A stretch of 63,997 bases of DNA, filler included, from Gonapodya sp. JEL0774 (lineage: Eukaryota), in assembly GCA_027604505.1 (NCBI GenBank). It is 13 parts of 13 records of this genome, joined end to end, with 100 filler letters (N's around TTAATTAATTAA, not from the genome) between each part and the next. Parts side by side here need not be neighbours in the genome. Positions count along the whole stretch, not along the records: positions 19,898 to 24,757 come from JADIIX010000839.1; 12 more parts are not named here. The stretch is one strand, 5' to 3'. Shown here piece after piece: positions 1,799 to 29,706 of this stretch. The notes beneath the pieces were generated by a model. The model was not told the DNA's origin and did no database searches. It was given only the letters and a program-made list of their open reading frames with translations. The stretch's first letter is position 1; each line of letters opens with the position of its first letter. The position numbers were made by a program, and so were the translations under genes.

Positions 1799-2380
1799 CC
1801 TGGTGTGCTCCACACAGCAGTTTCTTTGGGCTTGAGCTTGAGCGGCAAATACAGTTTCTGTGTAGAGAAGTAACATACTCGATGCAGCCCCGAGCCCCGA
1901 AGCGCCGCCCGCCCACCCGCTACTTCGTGACAACTCCAATTTTTGTTTTCGAAGCAGTTTGATCTGATTTTCGAATGGTGTAGAGTCTAATAGATGTGTT
2001 CGCTACACTGTGATGCGTGGTCGAATTTTTGTGTGTGGGATGAAGACAGCGTTTGTCAAGAAAATGTAAAAGCTATAATACATCAGATGACACCAAGGGC
2101 CGAACCGGTGGTAGCCCAATCAGTGCAGGAAACGACGTTTTCAACCGGTCGTGGTCCGTTCGTTCTGTTGATATAAGCGCCCGTCCCGACCGGAGGCGAT
2201 TGAACTGGCCCGGGCGAGCTTTCAGACAAAACGCCTCTCCACCTTATTTTGGCGTGCTGGTTCCCGCGCTCGTTGGTTTCGCACGTCGGCTTTGGCCTGG
2301 GCCAGGTGGGTACGCACGCACCGACCAAACAAACACCCTCCCGCCCCCACGATTCCCCGAACCCCCCACGCGATTAATTC

Positions 2381-4883
2381 ATGCACTCGCTCGCCCACCT
2401 TTTCAAATCGCTCCGTCCGTCGATCCCTCATACCGCTTCCGATGGCGATATCCCTGCTCCCGCAGATGCCGATCCCCCCGATCCCGACGTCGCACCTGGC
2501 GCGTGGCACGACGACGATGCCGATGCCAATCCGCCTGACCCGATCCTCCAGCTGGCGACGGTATCGGACGTAAGCGACTCGCCGTCACCGGATGGAGACG
2601 ACGTTGGATCCACCTCGGACGATTCCGCCGACTTTCGAACCGCCATGGTCCCCCACATCGACACGACCAACACCACGGGCGTCACGTTCCTCCCACCACC
2701 TCCCACCCATGCCCCCGGAGCCCGTCCCCGTCCCGCCCCCCCGGCGCTGGCCAAAATCCCCGCCGTATGGACCATCAAGGACACCGACCTAGTCTACTCG
2801 GTCCACGACGTGCTCGGTAGGGGCGGGTACGGCGTGGTGTACCGTGGCACGTGGCTCGTCGACGTGGACGTGGCCGTGAAAGTCGTCACGGTGGGAGAGG
2901 GGTACGATGAGAAGGTGGGTCGTGAGGGGTTCGGGGTACGGGATCTCCTTGGTGCGAGATTCGCTCAAAAGAGACCCGCTCCAACCACCACGGCTGACGG
3001 CCCACACCAGTCCTTCGAGGCCGAAGCCACCATGTGGTACAACACGACTTCACCACACGTACTCCCCCTACTGGGAATCGTCCAACAGAACAACAAGCTG
3101 GCTCTGGTCTCTCCCATTCTCGAAAACGGCACCGTGCAGGCTTACCTCAAAACGTTTTACAGCGACGAACCTCGACGGCGCAGGTGGCGATCCAACTGGT
3201 GAGTTTTCAGCTTTTGTAATCTCAAGAACTCATAAAGCTTTCACCTCTCATCCGACCTCCCCCGCGTTACCCCCAGCTCCTGGACACCGCCCGAGGCATG
3301 CTTGACCTCCACTCCAAGGGCATTGTTCACGCTGACTTAAAGCCGGGCAACACCTTGGTGAACAAGCAAGGTTGCGCCGTCTTGCCTGACTTTGGATCCT
3401 CCAAGCTCTTGGGTGGTGCAGAAGCCAATAATGTGACGGGAGACAGGATAGGCACTCCCAGGTACATGTCACCAGAGAGGTTGAGGGAGGAGGGGACAAC
3501 AAAGGCAGATGATGTGTACGCTTTTGCAATGATGATTTATGTGGTGAGTTGGTACAAAAAGTCACTTTTGGTCCTCTGTGGAGGGCGGAGCTGTGGAGGC
3601 TTGAGAACACAACATGAACTGAGCTCTTCCTGGACACAGCTCTGGACCAAAAAGGAGCCCTTTGCTGAGCTGTCACAGATGCAGTTCTATGCTCTCTTGC
3701 CGTCCATATGTGGGCCTCCACACATTCGTCCAGAGGTTCTGTCAGATGGAGCCATGCCTAAGGATTTGGAAACTCTCATGCATCAGTGTTGGGATCCTGA
3801 CCCAGACAATCGACCATCGTTCTCCCTTATTTGTGAGACACTGTTTCATCTATGGTGCGTTTTTGTTTTGTTTTGCTTTGTTGTTTTTTTCTGTGATTGT
3901 GCACTGTTCCTTCTCAATTAGCCCACAACAAGAACCATCTGTTGAACCCTCCACCCCAAACTCATCCCCTGAAAATCTGGATGGTGATGCATCATCCCTC
4001 TTCTCTCTAGCCGCTTCTCTCCACCATGGCTTGAATGGACATGTGAAGGATCTTGAGAAAGCAGCCGAGGTCTATGCAAGGGCGGCAGAGTTTGGCCACC
4101 CTGAAGCACAGTACGCACTCTGTTTCTTCTACTCAACTGGGCTGGGTGTGCTGCAAAAGGATCTTGAGGTGGCTTTCCAGTGGTGCCAGAGGGCTGCTGC
4201 CCAAGATGTGGGGCTTGCTGTTCTGGGCCTCGGCACCTCATACTACTATGGCCAAGGAGTGGAAGAAGATAAAGCAGAGGCAGTTAAATGGTGGACCAAT
4301 GCGGCAGATATGGGTAATGACGAGGGACAGTTCAATCTGGCTACCTGTCTGTTGTACGGCACTGGAGCTCCAAAGGATGAAAAGAAGGCTGTGGACTGGT
4401 TCAAAAGGTCAGCTGAGCAAGGTTACTTACAGTCACAATATTTCCTTGGTCTGCACTATGAGAATGGCATAGGAGTGGAGAAGAATGGAAGGGAAGCAGC
4501 TGGGTGGTACAGGAAGGCAGCTGAGCAAGGGAATGCAGATGGACAGACTTGCCTTGCTATGTGCTATCAAGATGGGATTGGTGTGGACAAGGATGAGAGT
4601 GAGGCTGTGAAGTGGCTTGCCAAGGGTGTGGAGCAAGGCAACCCTAGAGCACAGGATCTTCTTGGGTTCTATTATGAGAAGGGGATCATGGTGGAGAAGG
4701 ATGAAAGGGAGGCTGTGAATCTTTACAAGAAAGCTGCAGAACAAGGTTATGCTAATGGACTGAACAGTCTTGCTGTGTGCTACAAGAATGGCATAGGTGT
4801 GGAGAAAAATGAAGCAGAGTCATTGAACTTGGTCAGAAGATCTGCAGAGCAGGGAGATCCAAGGGGACAGCATCTTCTGGGTG
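2381..4883 (+). CDS. Tyrosine-kinase-like (TKL) protein kinase fused to Sel1 repeats, 3'-partial, multi-exon
   Basis: Kinase motifs GRGGYGVVY, VAVK, HADLKPGN, DFG, GTPRYMSPE and CWDPDPDNRPSF. These are followed by repeated ~36-aa Sel1 units such as YFLGLHYENGIGVEKNGREAAGWYRKAAEQG. Confidence 0.9.
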
Positions 4884-11395: not shown

Positions 11396-14300
11396 ATGAA
11401 ATCTTCCTTATCGTTTCCGAATTCGTATGTCTTTTTGGTGGATCCTTTGGACCAGGAGGATGTGCGGGAAATTGTGAGCGAGATTGATCTTCATGGATCA
11501 CCCTGGTGGTCTGATTGTTCTCTGAATCTGAATGGACTCTGAACCTGCCATTGGTACAGGAGCTTCTCTCGAATTATGTTCATCTCTTGGAGAAACTGGG
11601 TCTTCCCTCAGAGATAAAGCTCTCGGAATCTCCAGTTGGACATCAGCAAACCGTGCCTGGGGAGAATGTCATGGTTCAAAAGCTTCAAGAGGCAGTAAGT
11701 CAAATTGAAAAGTGAAACCCAGATTGCCATATTGTGATGCGGCAAAACTGTACAGGTGTCTCTTCAGCCTGGCCCTTCTCTCAAGGCTCTGACATACGGC
11801 ATTCTGGTGGATGTCCCAAATGGTGCATTAGTATGTGAAAGATTCAATTTAAAGAGAATGAAAATCAAAGTGCAGAGAAGCTAACAAAGGCTTTTGGTGG
11901 ATGATTACTGAATTCAATCAGCTTCTACGATTGCTTCCTCAAATCCCACTTGGAAGAAACACAGAAGCCATCATTGATCCTATTCTATACTTTCTTCAAC
12001 ATCAGAAGTGGAGAAACATCAGGTGGAGTGTTAAGAAGCAGGTTTGTGCACCAACTTGATGCTTTTTCATGCACATTCAGGCTTAAATGAATCTTGCGTG
12101 TCATATCTCATGCCATTATATATAGCTCTTGCTCCTTTTAGATTTTCTCCCATCATTGCTTCAATTAGCAACTGGAATTGTGGAGCGGCTCCACATTCTT
12201 TCCTTCCAGCAGATTCAAGGTGGAGACACAGATGTCAACTATCCTGCACACCTGAATTTGCACCTAAATACACCAAAACCATACCCTCATCACAAGTCTA
12301 TTGCATATGCCCATCTTTTGTTTGATAAAGTTCTGGTGAAGGCCCAAGATGATCTCTCACGTTATGAGCAGCAAAGCGGTTCTGGTGAAGGAGCTAAAAG
12401 CCTGGAGGATGGAGTGGTAGCGGAAGGTGTTGGGAACCAAAGATTTCTCTGGGTACCAAATGTTAATGTGAGGTGGACAGCAGGACTTATTAGTATGGTG
12501 AATCAATTCAAGTGAGTGTGAGATAATTAATGAGCTTGCATGACTGAGACCACAAACTTATTAGCAACATCACTCCATGTTACTAGAATCTGGAAAAGGG
12601 CTGACTCCACCCCGATGTACACAGCAATGGTCTTCCTCCTGTTATCTCGACTTGTTGCAGAACATCACATTTTCTTATCAGCTCCCAACAAGAACCCAGA
12701 AGCCTTTGTTGAGAATGACATTTTGTACTCTCAAATGAAGGTACAAGCTCAACTGAAAAGAGAGATGAAGGAGTTAATGGAGGTACAGGTTGCAATTTGT
12801 AGTGAGCTTATGGCAGAGCAGGTAAGACTCAATAATGTTGAGCTGTGGACACTAAATTCCTAGTATCCTGTTCATAGGTCTCCAGTATTCTGTATTTAGG
12901 CAGAGACCTGTTGAGGGTGCTCTCAGACCTCTCAACAACACCACCTTTTTCAGAATTTTTATCAAGGCTTATCTGTGATCCCAGCACTATTTCAGTTGCA
13001 AAATCTCCTTTTCAAGAAATACTGTCAGGCAAAGACACTTTTGGGAGGCTTACAGGGAGACTGGTTGATGCCAGTGCTCTTTTGAAGATTCCTTGTCCAT
13101 CAGAGATTCTAGCTGTAAGGTTAACACATGAAATGCGTACAGTCCTTTCATGGGTACTACAAAATGTAAGTAAGCCACATGATGGTCAAGTACTTTGCAC
13201 TGTATTCTTCCCCCTTTTTTGCAGCCCATCTTAGATGACAGTGCTTCAAAGTCATATCTTGCGTGGATCCAAAGCTTACTATGCCCTACTTTGTCATGTG
13301 AAACAATTTTTCTTCCAGATGTTATTCGCTATCTTGTGCGCTGTGTCCATCCCTCAAATGACTATCTGTTGCCAGTGTATCTCCAGCGCTTTGACTTTAT
13401 TGCTCATTGGCTCTTGGGAATTAGATCAGCAGTTGGTGCAGCATCATGTAAAACAGCACTTTTCTGGGACTGGATTGGTTACTCAACTGCAGGTCCTCAC
13501 AGAGTTCTTCTTGACAACATAATGAATGTGGAACCAGGAATCCTTCTCATTGCAAATCTTGCTAACAAGCACCCATTTTTAGCTCTTCAAATGCTTGAAT
13601 TCTTGTGTATGCTCCCTAAAATCTGGTTTACACCCTTTCAGAGCACTATTATGCAAAGTTTACAGCTTGTTATGAAGGAAATTCAAAAGCTTAAGGTTGT
13701 GACCAATCCTGAATCCTTCATAGCTTTGGCAGTGCAGCAAGGAAGCAATGAACTTTATCAGGAGCTTAAAGGTCTTTGGGGAGATCTTTTGGACATTCCT
13801 GCATTGTCTGTTATGCAAGGCTCAAATGGGGAGCAAAAGGAGAATGAGGTGCTGCTTGACTCTGAGCAGGACATTTTTTTTACAAAAGAAAAAGAAAGTC
13901 CATGGTCTGTTGGAGATGATGACATATATGGTGAAATAGGTAATCTTGAGTCAATGGAGGAAGTTGAAAAAATTCGTGATGATGAAATTGAGGGGTTTAC
14001 AGACAGTGACAATGACATGGACATTGAAGAGAATGGTGTGGCTGATATTTATGAGAATGTCACAGAAGGACACCATAGCCTTGAGTCCAATTGGCAGAAT
14101 GCTTTTGCAAAGGGTGACGTGGAAACTTGCAAGCGAGTGTTAACTCAAATTGCTGGTGGAGTGATTATGCAGGTGAGTGTGAGGTTATGAACAACATTTT
14201 AGTTTTAGTTCGCAAACTCACTTGGTTTTAACTATTATTTTCAGACCTTGCCTATCACAACACTAACAACTATTATTTCTGAAGTGCTTCGGACAGAAGA

Positions 14301-14829
14301 ATTGTCGCTCCCACTTTCAGGAGATTCATTGCATGATCCAAATGCACTTCTTCTGTCACCCTGGCTTGATATGACAATTGATGTACTCATCCAACAATTT
14401 GTGGATCCTCAAAATTGGAATAATTTAACACAAACTACTTGGATTAATACTGTCTCCAAACTCAACTTGTCAAGAAGACAAGTATTGTTGGTTGGTTTAA
14501 TTATAGTGTGTGCCAGGTGATTGCGTTGTTTTGTGAGCTTTCCTCTTTATCATTTACTAAGAATACTGGACAAGGCAAACCTTGGAGTTAAACAACAGTA
14601 CTGGGCTTCCATTGTATACCACCTGGCATGAACATAAGAGAAATGCACAGAAGAATATGACAGAGGATTTAAAGGTTTGTTCTAATTGAGACTCTTCTGC
14701 TTGTTGTTCAAAATCCTTTTTTACATGTTAATGAATACCAGTATGTCCAAGCACATAATCCTCATTTATTTTTCAACCTGCTACCATTCTCCCTAAAATT
14801 TCTGCCAAAATTGGGTGTTGGCAATACTG
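11396..14829 (+). CDS. INTS3: Integrator complex subunit 3 / SOSS-A homolog, 3'-partial, multi-exon
   Basis: PDVIRYLVRCVHPSND, AASCKTALFWDW and NIMNVEPGILLI match the INTS3 N-terminal domain (human DLIRYICGVVHPSNE, KLALFYDW, SIMNIEPAILVM). Confidence 0.88.
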
Positions 14830-19897: not shown

Positions 19898-20637
19898 GAG
19901 ATGCCAGGATTTATTTGACACAGTTCAAACCTGAAGGTTGCAAATTCACTCACCTTTACTACTCTCTGGTACGTTGTCACAATTGACTCAAGATGCCCAG
20001 GAGCAAGTAAATCCTCATCCCGTACCATAGCAATGAGCTCATACCATTTCTTTGTCTTGAGTACATCAATTTCATCCTAATTGGCTCAATGTTGCGGTGG
20101 AGTGTTCCCAATTTGATGACAAATGTGCAAACATTGCAACATGCCATCACACTAACCTGGCGTTTCAGTTTCACAAGTTGTTTTGAGATCTGCTCAACAA
20201 GATTTGCCGTCACACCAGTGAGACGATGCCGGCCATCAACAGTGCCATATCCTGTTCCACCAGGTTGAGGTGCATCAGGGGCTTTCAACCAAAGTATCCC
20301 TGGAGTAGTGTCTGACCATCCACGAGCTTTAAGTGAATCACTATATAGTAATGTATATGCTCACAAATTAAAAAATTGGTCGCAGTTGGACTAAATGAAA
20401 CACTCACCAGACAGGTTGGAGGGTCTGTTTGCTTTCATCGCACTCTCAGACATCCACATAATCGTCAGGATCAATCAGTTCCAAGCTGATCTTGTGTATT
20501 TTACTGGGGGAGACCTCCCATTTATGGAGCTCATTTGTGAAGTTCCCGCGTGCCTCAATGGCAGCTGGAGATGGGGACTGTGACGTACCTCTTTTTGGTG
20601 GTTCCTGTTTGGCTGCTTTTTTTGCCTTTGGAGGCAT
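19898..20637 (-). pseudogene. Intron-containing ParB/sulfiredoxin N-terminal-domain gene with a nonsense codon, 3'-partial
   Basis: Splicing GTGAGT(20407)..TATAG(20341) gives ISLELIDPDDYVDV*ECDESKQTLQPVCDSLKARGWSDTTPGILW...GYGTVDGRHRLTG, which fits the ParB-N pattern. The TGA at 20446-20448 sits where a conserved Arg (CGA) is expected. Confidence 0.7.
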
Positions 20638-20759
20638 GATGTTTCCAGATTGTGATGGAATGTATTGAATGGATATCTCTGATGGAAACTTGACTTCAGG
20701 GTGTGCTGTGTGTGGCTGATCAACAGCCGTGTTTTTCTGCACTTGACAACTTTTTTGCT

Positions 20760-20862
20760 CTGTCGGGCCAACAGACATTCAAAAATTGCACTTCTGCAGA
20801 TTTGAAAGTCGAAAAGATCGTGAAGTTTAACTGCAATTACCAACGCTCTGTCGGGTCAACAG
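20760..20862. repeat. Two copies of the CTGTC-N5-RACAG palindromic unit upstream of the ParB-like start
   Basis: CTGTCGGGCCAACAG at 20760 and CTGTCGGGTCAACAG at 20848, 88 bp apart. Confidence 0.75.
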
Positions 20863-21899
20863 AAGTGTGAAAACAGCAGCACTTCCAGGAATGAACCAAT
20901 AGACAGGTCCTGCACATTTCAATCTAACAAATTTGATGATGTTCATGTATTTCTGAAATGCTTCCATCATTCTGACTGTGTATATACAATTGCATAACAT
21001 ATTGTATATCCTATCCCACAAAGTTGGGCACAACAGTTTGAACAAGACCAATGTGAACATCTCAATACATGATACATGTGTGTGCTTTGACACTCTTTGC
21101 GCTCCCAGCTGCTCAAAGATTAGTGTTCCGCTCACTTCACTTTCATCCATGACACCATCCTCATGGAAACCACCAACCCCTGAGGTATGGCAGTTGTGAC
21201 TGCTCCTCTCATAGTTGGCAGTGCTTGTGAGTGGGGCAATGGGAGCAGCGCTCCTTTCTGCGTCCACTTTTCCATGCTCATCTACTTGGCACCTGTTTCC
21301 ACTCACCTCGAGCAACTCCTGTTCAATCCACAGTCTCCTTTCGCAACCCCAGAGCACGTTTTCATTGTTTTTGACTTTTAGTGATGATTTCGACAGGAAA
21401 AATGTTGGGAGTGAGAGGAAATTTGCAGACTTCAGGGGAATGTTCTGTGATATAACTGCTTGAGAGACAACAAGTCCCACCTTGAAAACCGTTGTGGTCG
21501 CTTATTTGAGAGCTAAGGAAGCTTGCAAACACCATCTGGGCATGCGAAGAGCAAACCAGAGTCCAATATGTGGGTCGGACATGTCTTTGTGCATCAAACA
21601 CACTCACCTCCACCCTGATGTAATTCGACCAAAAATGAGTCATTCTCCAGTCTATTGTTCCCATATTGAGCTTGCACTGTGTTGGAATGGTCCTGATGGC
21701 AGTCGCTTGCACGTTTCTCCGATCCCAGACTGTGTTGTGTTTTGTTGACCTTTTCACCAACGCCCACGCCCCTGTGTGACCATTCACAAGACCTCTCCCG
21801 GATTCTAAAGATGGGATGGTTGGGGTCTGGGGAAAGTTGTATCTAGGGTTAAGAACAGTGTTCTTTGCCTTCTGTTCCTTCACAAACAAAACAGTGCAC

Positions 21900-23095
21900 A
21901 ATTGAAAGCGCTGTTGGCCCGACAGCAATTCAGAAATTGCACTCGCTCCCATTGTGCCCGTTTGGATTGAAATGTGCAATTTCTGAAGCTTTGTCCGGTT
22001 GACAGCAATTCAGAAATTGCACTCGTGGAATGTTCACTTGCTCCTATTGTGCCTGCTTGGTATGCTATTTTTGAAGGTCTGTCGGATTGACAGAGCTTCA
22101 GAGCTTGCACCGTTCAACTCATTCTCAAAAATTTTGAGAGCATTGAAATGTGTGATTTCTGTTGCTCTGTCAGGCTGACAGAGCACCAGAAATTGCACAC
22201 ATCAACTCTGTCCCCAAGCATATTGAGAGCACCCAAACGTGCTATTTCTGATGGTCTGTAGGGTCGACAGTGCAAAAGAATGCACATGTATAGAACGAAT
22301 GTCATTTCAAATGCTTACAAAAAGAGGGAATGAAAGAAAAAGGATTCCGCCAGTGAACCCATGCCGGTCAAATAGCAGCAAGTGGATAACCCACTGCACT
22401 GCACGTTGTGCCCTCAATTCTGCTCCGAATTTAAGATATATATCTTTGTATGACAAACTCTTTCATCGAAACACGTAAATTCTGAAGGCCTGTCCACCCA
22501 ACAGCGCTTCTGAATTTGCACATATGAAACAAGAAGCAGAGGGCTCTTGATTTTCATAACTTGCAAATTTTGAGGGTCTGCTGACCTGACAGCGCTTTAG
22601 AATTTCCACATATGAAACCAGAAGCAAAGGGCCCTTGACCTTCAAAACTACCTTCATAAATTGCAAATTTTGAAGGTCTGTCAACCCGACAGCGCTTCTG
22701 AACTTGTATTTATGTAACAAGAAGCGAAGGACTTCGGATCTTCGTGACATCCAACTTAGAAAGGCCTGCCCACCCAACAGCACTTCTAAATTTGCATTTA
22801 TGAAATGAGAAGCAAAGGATTATTGACCTTCTTGGCCTGCAAATATGGAAGGTCTGTCGACCCGACAGAGCTTTCAAAATCGCACATGGGAAAAAAGCTG
22901 CAAACTACTTTTGACCTTCGCAACATGCAAATTTGGAAAGCCTGTCTGGTCAACAGTGCTTCTGAATTTGCATATATGAAGTGAGAAGCAAAGGTCTGTC
23001 GAGCCAACAGAGCTTGGAAAGTTGCACGTATCAAAGAAGAGGCAAAGGTCTTTTCACCTTTGCTACAATGCAAATTTGGAAAGTCTGTCAACGCT
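21900..23095. repeat. Degenerate tandem array, ~88-bp period, each unit centred on a CTGTC-N5-GACAG palindrome
   Basis: Cores at 21911, 21991, 22079, 22167, 22256, 22490, 22578, 22678, 22766, 22854, 22942 and 22996, plus a half-site at 23085. Shared flanks are GAAGGT and GCTTCTGAATTTGCA. Confidence 0.9.
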
Positions 23096-23225
23096 TTTCA
23101 AAGAGTTGACATGCAATCAATAGTAAAGACATATTTACTGAACGTGTCACTAACAACCTACGAGCAACTTAGAGACAGTGTAAGGACTTGGTGATGCACC
23201 ACTCCCTCAGAATTCATTCCCAAAT

Positions 23226-24757
23226 ATGCCAATCCAAATAAAAATGAGAATTGATTCTACAATTTTCAAGTCATACGCTGATGGACCACTTACATCCAGC
23301 GCTTTCTGCACGGACTTTGGCTTACGTGATGGAATTAGAACCACAGTTCTGGTGCCGGACACGGATCCGGATCTCATGTTCTTCCCCAACAATGATGGGG
23401 TTTTTGAAGTTCCTCTCATGTCTGGCTACACTATTGTAGGAAAAACATCCTGCAAGGGGGCTGTTTGCAGTGGAACAGGCCTTGACTTGATCGAATGGAA
23501 CAGCCAACCCAGACAGGCACCAGGACTGGACAATGATTCATTCTCTGTTAGCTCAGGTGTGACTGACATGTCAGTGATCAGTGTGTTGCATGCAGAATTG
23601 GAAGTTCCCCAATCATTGTCTGCCACCCATCCAGGAATTGTCAGAAGCCCTGCTGATATTCTATTTTCACCTGAAGAGGAAGCAATTGTCCAGGAACACG
23701 TTCAAGAAAAGGCCGATCTTAGAAATCTACTTGTCTATAATGTTAACCCGCCAGATTGCGGGTAATGCAAAAAGCAAAAGAGAACCGATTTTCATAGAAA
23801 AGTATGTGGTTTTTCAATACCGATAGTTGAATCTTGCTAAATGCTCCTTTTAAGGGTCGCAAACATTTTCCTGTGATTGGAGGTGAATTACACTACCAGG
23901 ATGCAGACAGAGTCCTCGAACATTGCTTTGCAAGAATTGAGGAAGTATGAACAACCTATCCCCGTACACTCACTGAATACTCAAATTTGTCGAAGGCAGA
24001 TTAAAGAAGCAATCTACAAATGTCACTTTTCACCTGATAAAGGAAACCGTTCAGGTGTTAATCAGACGCTCTTCAAGATAGGTCAAAAAGGCTACACAAA
24101 GAGCTTGTGGAGTCTCACTGTCTCCATCATTTGGAGATGCCCTGTCTGTATTGTGGAGAAGCAGTGTCCATCTCCTGCACCTCTGATGCCAATACTTACT
24201 CATACCCCACATGACATGGTAAAGTGTCCCTTTTGTGTTCCAAAGCCAGGTGTACTGACTCAATTTTCCACTGTCTGTTATTAACTACACCAAGTTGGGT
24301 GCGTTCTGGGTTCTGTTTATGGTGTGCCACTTCAGCAAACTATTGTTTGGTAAGGCATTTAAGAATAAGATGATCAACTCAATTTTTTTTGTTCAGCTGT
24401 GCCCTCCTAAATGTTATTGACATATATACAGTCAGCATCAAATGTTGTTCAGTTCCTAACAGATGTATTTACTCAATTTGGGGCTCCCCTGGTCCTCCTC
24501 TCTGATAATGGTAGAGAGTTTATTGCTCAATCTGTGACTAAACTGCTGGAAAAATGGGGTGTTGATCCACGGAATGGAGCTCCTTACAAGCCCACTGACC
24601 AGTGATGCATTGAAAGGTTTAATGGCACAGGCAAAAGAAGGGACAAGAAACATCTGATGCAGTTGGGCCTAGATCTTGCTTTTCTGACATTAGATGCCAT
24701 CAATACTGTTATCACAAACATCACAAACACTATGAATCATGAGAAGTGTGCTGCTAC
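23226..24757 (+). mobile_element. Decayed Ginger/KRBA2-like DDE (rve) integrase/transposase with introns
   Basis: H2C2 remnant (KCHF...CPVC), PLMPIL, VCHFSK, FGAPLVLLSDNGREF and GAPYKPTDQ*CIERFNGT. In-frame TGA at 24603-24605. The first catalytic Asp reads Asn (VINYT, 24283). No RT/RNaseH is visible upstream. Confidence 0.85.
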
Positions 24758-28320: not shown

Positions 28321-29706
28321 TCACCTTGTCATTGGACGCTTCCACACCGTCACAGCACATGTCCCGTCCCACCCTTTCAATTCCTCTGGCCAGCTCGCCG
28401 TCCTCGTTTGCTGACGCCATACATTCCTCACATCGTTTGAGAAACTGCTGTTCGCCAAGTCCCGAACGATCTGATCGAGGTCGAACCTGCAGCCGGGTGG
28501 AAATGCCTCAAAAATAACCCTCAGAAATGTCCGTATCGCCGAGAGTGCCACGGTCAAATCTGCACACGGTGAACCACGGCTCAGAGTACTAAGAGGGGTG
28601 CGGATAGCCACGCATGTCACGCCAGGCAAGGCTTTCGCCAATGAGGTAGCGAATTCGGCCATCAAGGAAGTCGATAGAGCTTTGTCACTCGGTATGGCAA
28701 TGGTAGGAGCTTGAAAAGTGATACGGAACTTGCGTATCCCGGGTAATGAGACACGGGCGAGTTCGTCCACATTCAGAATCTTTTGACTGCTGAACTTGGT
28801 CCTTCCAACCTCGAAGTGACGCCTTTGAACCGCGAGTACGCCCAGCTCCTGGAGATAAGGATATACCGACGATGCAGAAAAGAACGTAAGCAGAGGTTTG
28901 GGTCCTTCCAGCCACGGTAGGATCAGCAATGATCGAACTCCATCCCGCCACGACAGCGGAAACATCTCTCGTGCGTGACGCTCAGCCATTTCAAGCCCAC
29001 AAACGAGTGGAAAGAACGATCGTCCGACAAGGGTCGTCGCATGGGGGAAGAGCACAGGAAAACGTTGACACATGGATGCATCCAGGGCATAGAAACTCAA
29101 ATAGGAGACTGTTTCCAGAGAAAGATTCGGACGATGTGGATCAATCCACCAAGGAAATACATCACTCCGGCGGTCATGCACTTCTGGCACTTGGTATCTG
29201 TTCGCGAAGGAACGCAAATGACGACCTAACGTCGGCTCGTCCTGAAATGATGAGCAGCGAGGGTGCCTTGCGATAGACACTGGCGCGAGCATTGTGCGAT
29301 TACGTCGTTCCGGTTTCGCAATGTTTGGATGTGTGGTGCTTAAAATACTCCAGCATGTAGTGTCGAACTCATTTTCCAGGGCACCCGCGAGAACCTGCCG
29401 GGGCGAGACTGTGACGAAGACTGAACGGGAGGTCCATACTGTGCTCCCTGAACTTGTCGTTAATCCCTGAAAGTCGTGCAGATCTTCGATAGGTGGAGGT
29501 ATCACGTTGTTGTAGTGCGTAGATTGGTCGCCAACAATAAGCTGGATAGCGATGGCCACGGTGTCGCCAGGACAGCCTGGAATAGCACCTAGTGTATCGA
29601 TACGAAAACGTCGGGAAACAAGTGGGATAATGCGGTAGAAGGTGGTGGGTGGGAGGAAGCGGAATACTCTGTGGAGGAGTTCGGGAGGGAGGGAGTGGAT
29701 TTCCAT
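28321..29706 (-). CDS. F-box domain protein, intronless, 461 aa
   Basis: N-terminal IHSLPPELLHRVFRFLP...LVSRRFR. Confidence 0.8.
   Translation of the reverse strand: MEIHSLPPELLHRVFRFLPPTTFYRIIPLVSRRFRIDTLGAIPGCPGDTVAIAIQLIVGDQSTHYNNVIPPPIEDLHDFQGLTTSSGSTVWTSRSVFVTVSPRQVLAGALENEFDTTCWSILSTTHPNIAKPERRNRTMLAPVSIARHPRCSSFQDEPTLGRHLRSFANRYQVPEVHDRRSDVFPWWIDPHRPNLSLETVSYLSFYALDASMCQRFPVLFPHATTLVGRSFFPLVCGLEMAERHAREMFPLSWRDGVRSLLILPWLEGPKPLLTFFSASSVYPYLQELGVLAVQRRHFEVGRTKFSSQKILNVDELARVSLPGIRKFRITFQAPTIAIPSDKALSTSLMAEFATSLAKALPGVTCVAIRTPLSTLSRGSPCADLTVALSAIRTFLRVIFEAFPPGCRFDLDQIVRDLANSSFSNDVRNVWRQQTRTASWPEELKGWDGTCAVTVWKRPMTR

What the first reader, a model, noticed from the sequence alone, without database searches (positions are those of the whole stretch)
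19898..24757. Candidate eukaryotic mobile element with a ParB-like gene, a parS-like palindrome array and an rve integrase
Seen in one contig: a spliced ParB/Srx-like gene (minus strand) and a Ginger-like integrase (plus strand) point away from each other. Between them are 14 palindromic CTGTC-N5-GACAG sites at a conserved 88-bp spacing. Known: bacterial ParB CTPases load on clustered ~16-bp palindromes (parS), and Ginger-type elements encode a lone rve integrase that can carry introns. Inference: the three parts form one element in which a ParB-like clamp binds its own array, for segregation, transpososome assembly, chromatin protection or autoregulation. I know of no described eukaryotic transposon with this layout. 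Both genes are inactivated in this copy.
Basis: partly seen in the sequence, partly recalled or inferred. Interest (0 to 1): 0.88.

Follow-up and report, generated by a model that had tools for sequence, protein, structure and literature searches.

The report
Fungal transposon relic with ParB-like gene
This is the decayed, cut-off interior of what is likely one jumping gene of a water-dwelling fungus, carrying an integrase, a likely ParB-like DNA-binding gene and evenly spaced palindromes in front of its genes, a design already proposed for seaweed transposons but, in my searches, not yet reported in fungi or with this kind of integrase.

Summary
The observation largely holds. The stretch is one 4.86-kb contig, cut inside both outer genes. 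It holds a spliced rve integrase (plus strand, Pfam E 2.8e-10, Ginger1-like motifs), a spliced minus-strand gene, a probable third decayed gene, and 14 copies of a 47-bp palindrome. The copies lie in three clusters, not one array; 8 of 13 gaps are 88-89 bp. Between clusters the palindromes stay 62-66% alike while the spacers are at chance level, so site and spacing look selected. A site lies 130-135 bp before each gene start. The ParB call is moderate: no Pfam, NCBIfam, PHROG or PDB hit, but a ParB profile aligns over 61 columns (GxxR kept) above 300 shuffles and 259 decoy ORFs. A second decayed copy is on record in Gonapodya. The layout is not new: ParB accessory genes beside inverted-repeat arrays are described in red-algal Plavaka and a ParB-methylase in brown-algal Sola1 transposons. 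Best reading: a self-regulating or anti-silencing module in a new host group and on a new transposase type. Segregation is unlikely. Ends, target duplication and binding are untested.

The parts
19898..24757 (.). Whole contig: interior fragment of a decayed DNA transposon, both ends missing
   Evidence: Bounded by N spacers with a linker; CpG observed/expected 0.41 overall, 0.12-0.57 in all 12 400-bp windows
20408..20637 (-). ParB-like gene exon 1 (basic N-terminal tail, start of the ParB-like domain; stop at codon 64, 20448-20446)
20157..20340 (-). ParB-like gene exon 2 (helix SLKARG, strands, DGRHR = GxxR P-motif); 67-nt GT-AG intron before it
19954..20076 (-). ParB-like gene exon 3; 80-nt intron before it, junction also present in KAJ3329087.1; gene runs off the contig inside the next intron
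20744..20878 (.). Palindrome cluster 1: two 47-bp sites 88 bp apart; nearest centre 130 bp before the ParB-like ATG
20830..21783 (-). Probable third, decayed spliced gene of unknown family; start and frame uncertain
   Evidence: ORFs of 224 and 215 codons (2 and 0 of 1000 shuffles); donor-like GTGAGT at 21607 and 21306; frame scores ambiguous; no family hit
21895..22286 (.). Palindrome cluster 2: five sites (gaps 80, 88, 88, 89)
22474..23110 (.). Palindrome cluster 3: seven sites (gaps 88, 100, 88, 88, 88, 54) plus a half-site at 23084; centres mostly in the opposite orientation to cluster 2
23226..24757 (+). Spliced rve integrase gene: exons 23226-23801, 23855-23944, 24000-24218, 24295-24369 (or from 24250), 24432-contig end; stops at 23763 and 24603 (a third at 24256 if exon 4 starts at 24250); last donor site non-canonical; C-terminus missing

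Best explanation
The contig is the broken interior of what is likely a single multi-gene cut-and-paste DNA transposon of a zoosporic fungus, in which a likely ParB-fold accessory protein is predicted to bind the element's own 47-bp palindromes in front of each gene and so would keep those genes active or regulated against host methylation. Shown: spliced rve integrase, spliced opposite-strand gene, palindrome clusters with a fixed 88-bp period, CpG decay, stops, a second copy of the minus-strand gene on record. Inferred, with my odds: all parts belong to one element (0.85); the minus-strand product has the ParB/Srx fold (0.75); it is the protein that reads the palindromes, as a dimer on two-fold sites and cooperatively along the 88-bp lattice (0.55); the purpose is transcriptional self-control or anti-silencing, perhaps through a DNA-modifying C-terminal domain that lies beyond the contig end as in algal relatives (0.45-0.5). 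This copy lost that contest: it was methylated, deaminated and is now dead.
For: One element: the same palindrome stands 130 bp before the ParB-like ATG, 135 bp before the first ATG of the middle gene and (as a half-site) 135 bp before the integrase ATG; no related DNA elsewhere in the window (one 1-mismatch core at 29561); CpG loss is even across the contig. Selected site and spacing: between clusters palindromes 62-66% alike, spacers 28-32% against a shuffled 27%, spacer length 41 in 8 of 11. ParB fold: colinear match of 61 columns to a profile of 37 bacterial ParB_N domains, HHalign score 25.3 (probability 39%, E 3e-4) with 0 of 300 shuffles reaching it, 26.8 (51%) for the window's gene alone against a maximum of 18.8 in 259 real-ORF decoys; GxxR present; a ParB_N cluster is among 30 Atlas neighbours of exon 2 (rank 14, 0.85, a lead only). 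Transposon: five exons join in phase 0, introns and no reverse transcriptase in front argue against an LTR element. Precedent: PAG3 and its arrays, Sola1-1_Ec32, VANC binding to motif arrays in non-coding regions of VANDAL (PMC5735166, passages).
Against: No Pfam, NCBIfam, PHROG or PDB match to any ParB family for the single exons or the exon 2+3 profile. HMMER score with my profile is only 6.6 bits, rank 2 of 2430, level with the best shuffles; a narrower first profile gave rank 4 and an HHalign score reached by 1 of 100 shuffles. Box III (EN..R) and an HTH are not seen in the part held, so the sequence-specific DNA-binding domain is assumed. The integrase-side site is only a half-site (nearest full site 223 bp), and the middle gene's ATG frame has 3 stops in its first 176 nt and a lower coding score than two other frames, so the 130-135 bp pattern rests on one firm case and two soft ones. 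CpG loss is also seen in host genes of this window, so it does not mark the element alone. No termini, no target duplication, no second locus with flanks: co-occurrence of the three parts across copies was not tested.
Confidence: 0.5

Rival explanations
1. One element, but the palindromes are read by another protein: the integrase (synapsis or autoregulation, as for subterminal repeats of En/Spm, recalled), the third gene's product, or a host transcription factor; the ParB-like gene is other cargo such as a nucleotide-dependent enzyme.
For: The DNA-binding part of the ParB-like protein is not in the contig; the integrase has an unexplained 180-residue N-terminal extension; many ParB-fold proteins are enzymes without parS binding and bind ATP or GTP (PMC12704722, passages); the DGRHR motif is nearer the DGQHR/DGQQR/FGGCHR type than to GERR (PMC4619093, passages).
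Against: The array is internal, in front of genes, with a separate pair right before the ParB-like gene; ParB genes recur beside such arrays on unrelated transposase types in algae, which points at the ParB protein rather than the transposase.
Confidence: 0.25
2. Chance nest of transposon debris, or two elements lying head to head, each with its own sub-terminal repeats.
For: Fragmented assembly, decayed sequence, no ends seen; clusters 2 and 3 have unrelated spacers and mostly opposite centre orientation around a 234-bp gap, as two facing ends could.
Against: All three clusters share one palindrome and one period; no inverted terminal junction was returned for the 234-bp gap; every gene reads away from the gap.
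Confidence: 0.12
3. The minus-strand gene is not of the ParB fold; the match is a chance likeness of a short motif, and the element is a multi-gene rve transposon with cargo of unknown family.
For: No library hit; HHalign probability only 39-51%; Atlas gave nothing for the Gonapodya copy.
Against: Colinear match across a splice junction, better spliced (26.8) than either exon alone (20.4, 11.4), above all shuffles and decoys.
Confidence: 0.1
4. A true parS-like partition system: the ParB clamp loads on the array and segregates an excised, episomal form of the element, or the contig is part of an endogenous DNA virus.
For: Palindromes in tandem at fixed spacing recall plasmid centromeres (recalled); GxxR kept.
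Against: No ParA gene, no ParA-binding motif in the N-terminal tail, no Box III, no replication or capsid gene in the contig; spliceosomal introns in all genes; no relative in viral contigs.
Confidence: 0.03

Closest known systems
PAG3 of giant Plavaka (EnSpm/CACTA) transposons of red algae (Petroll et al., bioRxiv 10.1101/2025.02.11.637652; passages and section 8 read; supplements closed)
   Same: Eukaryotic DNA transposon with an accessory gene bearing an N-terminal ParB-like domain (their HHpred E 0.29, also weak), tandem arrays of inverted repeats next to it, further accessory genes, most copies degenerate; self-binding proposed, untested.
   Different: Fungal-type host and rve integrase instead of an EnSpm transposase; the 2OG-oxygenase domain could not be looked for (contig ends); no sequence relationship tested; their repeat unit and spacing were not seen.
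Sola1-1_Ec32 of Ectocarpus (PMC12477816; passages, outline and part of the reference list read)
   Same: ParB-like accessory gene on the strand opposite the transposase.
   Different: Sola transposase; ParB fused to an N4C/N6A methylase, which is not visible here; no array mentioned in the passages read.
Ginger1 / Ginger2-Tdd DNA transposons (Bao et al. 2010, PMC2836005; parts 1-2 of 5 read)
   Same: Lone Gypsy-like integrase with introns; a YPYY-like stretch (by eye) before the zinc-finger region; second Asp and Glu of DDE present.
   Different: Described members carry one gene; Ginger1 was reported from animals only; ends, 4-bp duplication and GPY/F lie outside the contig; no tree could be built.
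VANDAL/VANC anti-silencing system of Arabidopsis (PMC5735166; passages)
   Same: Transposon with an accessory protein and dense arrays of a family-specific motif in its non-coding regions, formed by tandem repetition, in a host that methylates transposons.
   Different: VANC binding and demethylation are shown by experiment; its motif is a 9-bp direct repeat, not a 47-bp palindrome; no homology to ParB claimed.
Bacterial ParB-parS and orphan ParB regulators such as KorB, VirB, BisD (PMC12704722; passages)
   Same: N-terminal domain with C-motif helix and GxxR P-motif; two-fold sites.
   Different: No ParA, no ParA-binding motif, Box III not seen, HTH not in the contig; sites three times longer; gene is spliced.

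Membership tests
ParB/Srx fold | Profile match to ParB_N | tested here: inconclusive
   No Pfam/NCBIfam/PHROG/PDB hit for single exons; own profile: HHalign 25.3-26.8, above 300 shuffles and 259 decoys, probability 39-51%; HMMER 6.6 bits, rank 2 of 2430
ParB/Srx fold | Box II P-motif GxxR after two strands | tested here: met
   DGRHR aligns on the profile's dGerR; the Arg is Cys in the Gonapodya copy
ParB/Srx fold | Three-dimensional fold | tested here: inconclusive
   Model of the exon 2+3 homolog from 3 rows, pLDDT 54, pTM 0.29; too poor for a fold search
Canonical ParB CTPase clamp (ParABS) | Box III (EN..R) P-motif | tested here: not met
   Not aligned; at most a loose likeness in exon 3 without the EN pair; Box III is often absent in orphan ParBs
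Canonical ParB CTPase clamp (ParABS) | ParA partner and ParA-binding motif | tested here: not met
   Motif absent from exon 1; no ParA in the contig; rest of the element unseen
Canonical ParB CTPase clamp (ParABS) | Central HTH and C-terminal dimer domain; CTP binding; parS loading | not testable with these tools
   Gene is cut by the contig end after 179 codons
Ginger DNA transposons | Gypsy-like rve integrase without reverse transcriptase, introns allowed | tested here: met
   PF00665 E 2.8e-10; retroviral integrase structures E 1e-6; four introns in phase 0
Ginger DNA transposons | DDE triad and H2C2 finger | tested here: inconclusive
   Second Asp (SDNG) and Glu (IERFN) present; first Asp not present in either exon-4 model; CxxC and one His present; no Pfam zinc-finger hit
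Ginger DNA transposons | YPYY motif (Ginger1) and GPY/F motif | tested here: inconclusive
   YPYY-like stretch across exons 1-2 judged by eye only; GPY/F would lie past the contig end
Ginger DNA transposons | TG..CA terminal inverted repeats and 4-bp target duplication | not testable with these tools
   Contig ends inside genes; no genome or reads held
Ginger DNA transposons | Grouping with Ginger1 or Ginger2 in a tree, apart from Polinton and IS481EU | not tested
   No reference integrases were obtained (empty)
PAG3-type ParB accessory modules of algal transposons | ParB-like N-terminal domain next to tandem inverted repeats inside a DNA transposon | tested here: met
   with the moderate strength of the ParB call stated above
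PAG3-type ParB accessory modules of algal transposons | C-terminal 2OG-oxygenase or DNA methylase domain; homology to PAG proteins | not testable with these tools
   C-terminus missing; PAG sequences not available (bioRxiv supplements closed)

The most novel reading that the evidence does not exclude
Eukaryotic DNA transposons of unrelated superfamilies share a mobile, bacterially derived ParB nucleotide-switch clamp that loads at promoter palindromes set on a fixed 88-bp lattice and slides over the element to hold off methylation; this contig extends that module to fungi and to Ginger1-like integrases, and gives a defined site (47 bp, two conserved blocks per arm) and period with which to test the first NTP-gated sliding-clamp regulator in a eukaryotic nucleus.
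Probability: 0.25. Interest if true: 0.85.

Novelty: new variant of a known kind. Interest (0 to 1): 0.5.

Why it matters
ParB-type accessory genes beside inverted-repeat arrays were proposed only in 2025, for algal transposons, and have not been tested. A case in an early-branching fungus, on a retroviral-type integrase, suggests that the module travels between kingdoms and transposon superfamilies, as TET/JBP genes do between fungal transposons (PMC12730594, passages). The conserved 47-bp site, the sequence-independent 88-bp period and the position before gene starts give concrete probes for binding and spacing tests. The value is limited by the state of this copy: decayed, cut at both ends, ParB identity moderate.

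Tried and rejected
No genome is held for the window and no sequencing run was listed, so ends, copy number and expression could not be examined. Three homolog searches (ParB exon 2, integrase zinc-finger region, rve core; longer proteins only) found nothing. The full HMMER search with exon 2 gave 5 hits, of which 4 are repetitive proteins matched by chance. Both structure models were unusable (pLDDT 54 and 38), so no fold search was run; no complex was predicted. A two-site pattern found 0 viral contigs and 54 metagenome stretches; the 52 loci returned show other tandem repeats without the outer palindrome arms and no DNA or protein similarity to the contig. A one-site pattern gave 1 viral hit inside a gene, judged chance. 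Exon 2 gave 2 bacterial loci matching 21 residues inside an unrelated large ORF, 26 weak plasmid matches at E up to 10, and the exon 2+3 profile 8 of 301 genomes at E 0.003-0.045, none followed up. The rve core gave no viral locus. Rfam: no match. Rejected: LTR retrotransposon (introns, no RT); plain satellite (spacers at chance level between clusters); protein-coding repeat (period 88 is not a multiple of 3); the idea that the stop at codon 64 sits on the conserved Arg (it aligns one column later). Literature: ParB+transposon+eukaryotes+integrase+chytrid 0 papers; ParB+Ginger+transposase 1 unrelated paper; ParB-like+fungal+DNA transposon+palindromic 0; other searches were read as listings.
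Full report
Setting. The window is a string of unrelated contigs of about 4.85 kb joined by N spacers with a linker; the finding is exactly one of them, 19898-24757. Neighbouring contigs therefore say nothing about flanks. They do show an intron-rich flagellated eukaryote (IFT80, Integrator subunit 3, Sel1 repeats, F-boxes). The only true homolog found for the minus-strand gene is KAJ3329087.1, a partial hypothetical protein of Gonapodya sp. JEL0774 on a 3541-bp contig, 70 of 82 residues identical to the spliced window gene. The host is thus likely a Gonapodya-like zoosporic fungus (inference), and the gene exists in at least two diverged copies. No genome and no reads were available.

The array. 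Fourteen sites match CTGTC-N5-GACAG with at most two mismatches in register with the repeat (4 exact, 8 with one, 2 with two; two further 2-mismatch matches at 21319 and 22159 lack the outer arms and were left out). Twelve sites at one mismatch or less compare with a mean of 0.22 and a maximum of 2 in 100 shuffles of the contig. The real unit is a palindrome of about 47 bp: besides the core, an outer block 16-23 bp from the centre is kept in 20-26 of 28 arms at 7 of 8 positions. The sites form three clusters of 2, 5 and 7, plus a half-site at 23084; 8 of 13 gaps are 88-89 bp. Between clusters the palindromes are 62-66% alike while the spacers are 28-32% alike, against 27% for shuffled spacers; only cluster 3 has related spacers (56%); spacer length is 41 in 8 of 11. 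So site and period are conserved where spacer sequence is not, which fits selection for a protein-binding lattice better than a drifting satellite (inference). The core CpG is intact in 9 of 28 arms and reads CA or TG in 14, the mark of methyl-cytosine decay.

The minus-strand gene. Exons 20637-20408, 20340-20157 and 20076-19954 are joined by GT-AG introns of 67 and 80 nt; the contig ends in the third intron, after 179 codons; codon 64 is a stop. The second junction is present in the Gonapodya record. Single exons hit no ParB family in Pfam, NCBIfam, PHROGs or the PDB. I built two profiles from bacterial PF02195 matches and phage P1 ParB. The first, mostly canonical, gave HMMER rank 4 and an HHalign local score of 17.8 reached by 1 of 100 shuffles. 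The second, 37 more diverse domains, gave a colinear match from the first strand through the helix SLKARG to DGRHR on GxxR: HHalign 25.3, probability 39%, E 3e-4, 0 of 300 shuffles (mean 10.5, maximum 21.9), while HMMER gave only 6.6 bits, rank 2 of 2430. The window's gene alone scores 26.8 (51%); 259 decoys cut from other long ORFs reach at most 18.8; the exons alone score 20.4 and 11.4. The ESM Atlas lists a ParB_N cluster at rank 14 of 30 for exon 2 (0.85, a lead only) and nothing for the Gonapodya copy. A fold model was unusable. I put the ParB/Srx fold at about 0.75. Box III, a ParA-binding motif and an HTH are not seen; McLean-type orphan ParBs often lack Box III and may bind ATP or GTP (PMC12704722, passages), so CTP cannot be assumed.

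The integrase. The core matches PF00665 over its cut-off, IS481/IS3 models and retroviral integrase structures. Five exons (23226-23801, 23855-23944, 24000-24218, 24295-24369, 24432-end) join in phase 0 with stops at 23763 and 24603 and a non-canonical last donor. A YPYY-like stretch, a partial H2C2 finger, the second Asp and the Glu are visible; the first Asp is not, in either model of exon 4. Introns and the lack of reverse transcriptase point to a DNA transposon of the Ginger kind as defined by Bao et al. (PMC2836005, parts 1-2 read), but ends, duplication, GPY/F and a tree are missing, so 'Ginger-like' is a likeness, not a tested membership. Muszewska et al. count rve-type DNA elements as ubiquitous in fungi (PMC5751038, passages).

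A third gene. The 1-kb gap between clusters 1 and 2 holds minus-strand ORFs of 224 and 215 codons (reached by 2 and 0 of 1000 shuffles) and donor-like sites at 21607, 21306 and 21135. Frame and start are uncertain and no family matches.

One element? The nearest palindrome centre lies 130 bp before the ParB-like ATG, 135 bp before the first ATG of the middle gene and 135 bp (half-site; 223 bp for the last full site) before the integrase ATG. All genes read away from the 234-bp gap between clusters 2 and 3, around which the centres mostly flip orientation. CpG loss is even over the contig (0.12-0.57 in 12 windows); the contig value is 0.41 against 0.80-0.99 in 10 of the 11 other contigs measured. 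Against this, host genes in the window show the same loss, and co-occurrence in other copies could not be tested. Pattern scans of viral and metagenome contigs gave no relative.

What is known. Petroll et al. (section read) report PAG3, an N-terminal ParB-like domain plus a 2OG-oxygenase, with tandem arrays of inverted repeats next to it across Plavaka families, found also with Zisupton and Fanzor elements, and propose that it binds and modifies its own element. Dinatale et al. report a ParB-plus-methylase gene opposite the transposase of Sola1-1_Ec32. Iyer et al. (PMC4738411, passages) note ParB-type HTH fused to adenine methylases in chlorophytes and chytrid fungi; that is the HTH part, not the domain matched here. 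VANC proteins bind motif arrays in non-coding parts of their own VANDAL elements and lift methylation. Earlier notes of this scan describe like designs in other eukaryotes; they are unchecked leads and were seen after my own measurements.

Mechanism and verdict. Most likely the ParB-fold protein, as a dimer, reads the two-fold sites before each gene, helped by the fixed period, and keeps the element transcribed or shields it from methylation, perhaps with a modifying domain beyond the contig end (confidence 0.5). Rivals: another protein reads the array (0.25), chance nesting or two facing elements (0.12), no ParB fold (0.1), true partition or virus (0.03). It is a new variant of a recently described kind: real, worth following in better assemblies, not categorically new. 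Interest 0.5.

Noticed in passing
window 11558-14829 and 3201-4883: Host genes (Integrator subunit 3; the Sel1-repeat part behind a kinase) lose CpG sharply inside the gene (observed/expected 0.00-0.43) while their 5' regions stay near 1, the pattern left by gene-body methylation, which is unusual for a fungus (recalled).
   Followed up: partly
window 1-63997: The window is 13 contigs of about 4.85 kb sorted by length and joined by N runs with a TTAATTAATTAA linker; neighbours are unrelated.
   Followed up: yes
window 23226-23760 (+): The integrase has a 180-residue N-terminal extension with no family hit; a single-sequence model (pLDDT 38) was uninformative.
   Followed up: partly
window 22287-22473: Gap between clusters 2 and 3 holds an AT-only palindrome near 22434-22447 and some intact CpGs; a candidate two-way promoter.
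   Followed up: no
window 56940-57878 (+): ORF with a His-Me finger homing-endonuclease-type domain (PF05551, E 1.6e-10).
   Followed up: no
window 2378-4882 (+): Kinase domain followed by seven Sel1 repeats, a receptor-like or signalling protein type.
   Followed up: no
L005, L007-L013, L017-L021 and many more: Most metagenome pattern hits are one abundant 89-bp satellite with a CTGTT-N5-AACAG core, unrelated to this element.
   Followed up: partly
L032:249-527: A CpG-poor tandem repeat of 88-bp period with a perfect 15-bp core of the same form but without the outer arms; the 1056-bp contig shows no gene similarity to this element.
   Followed up: partly
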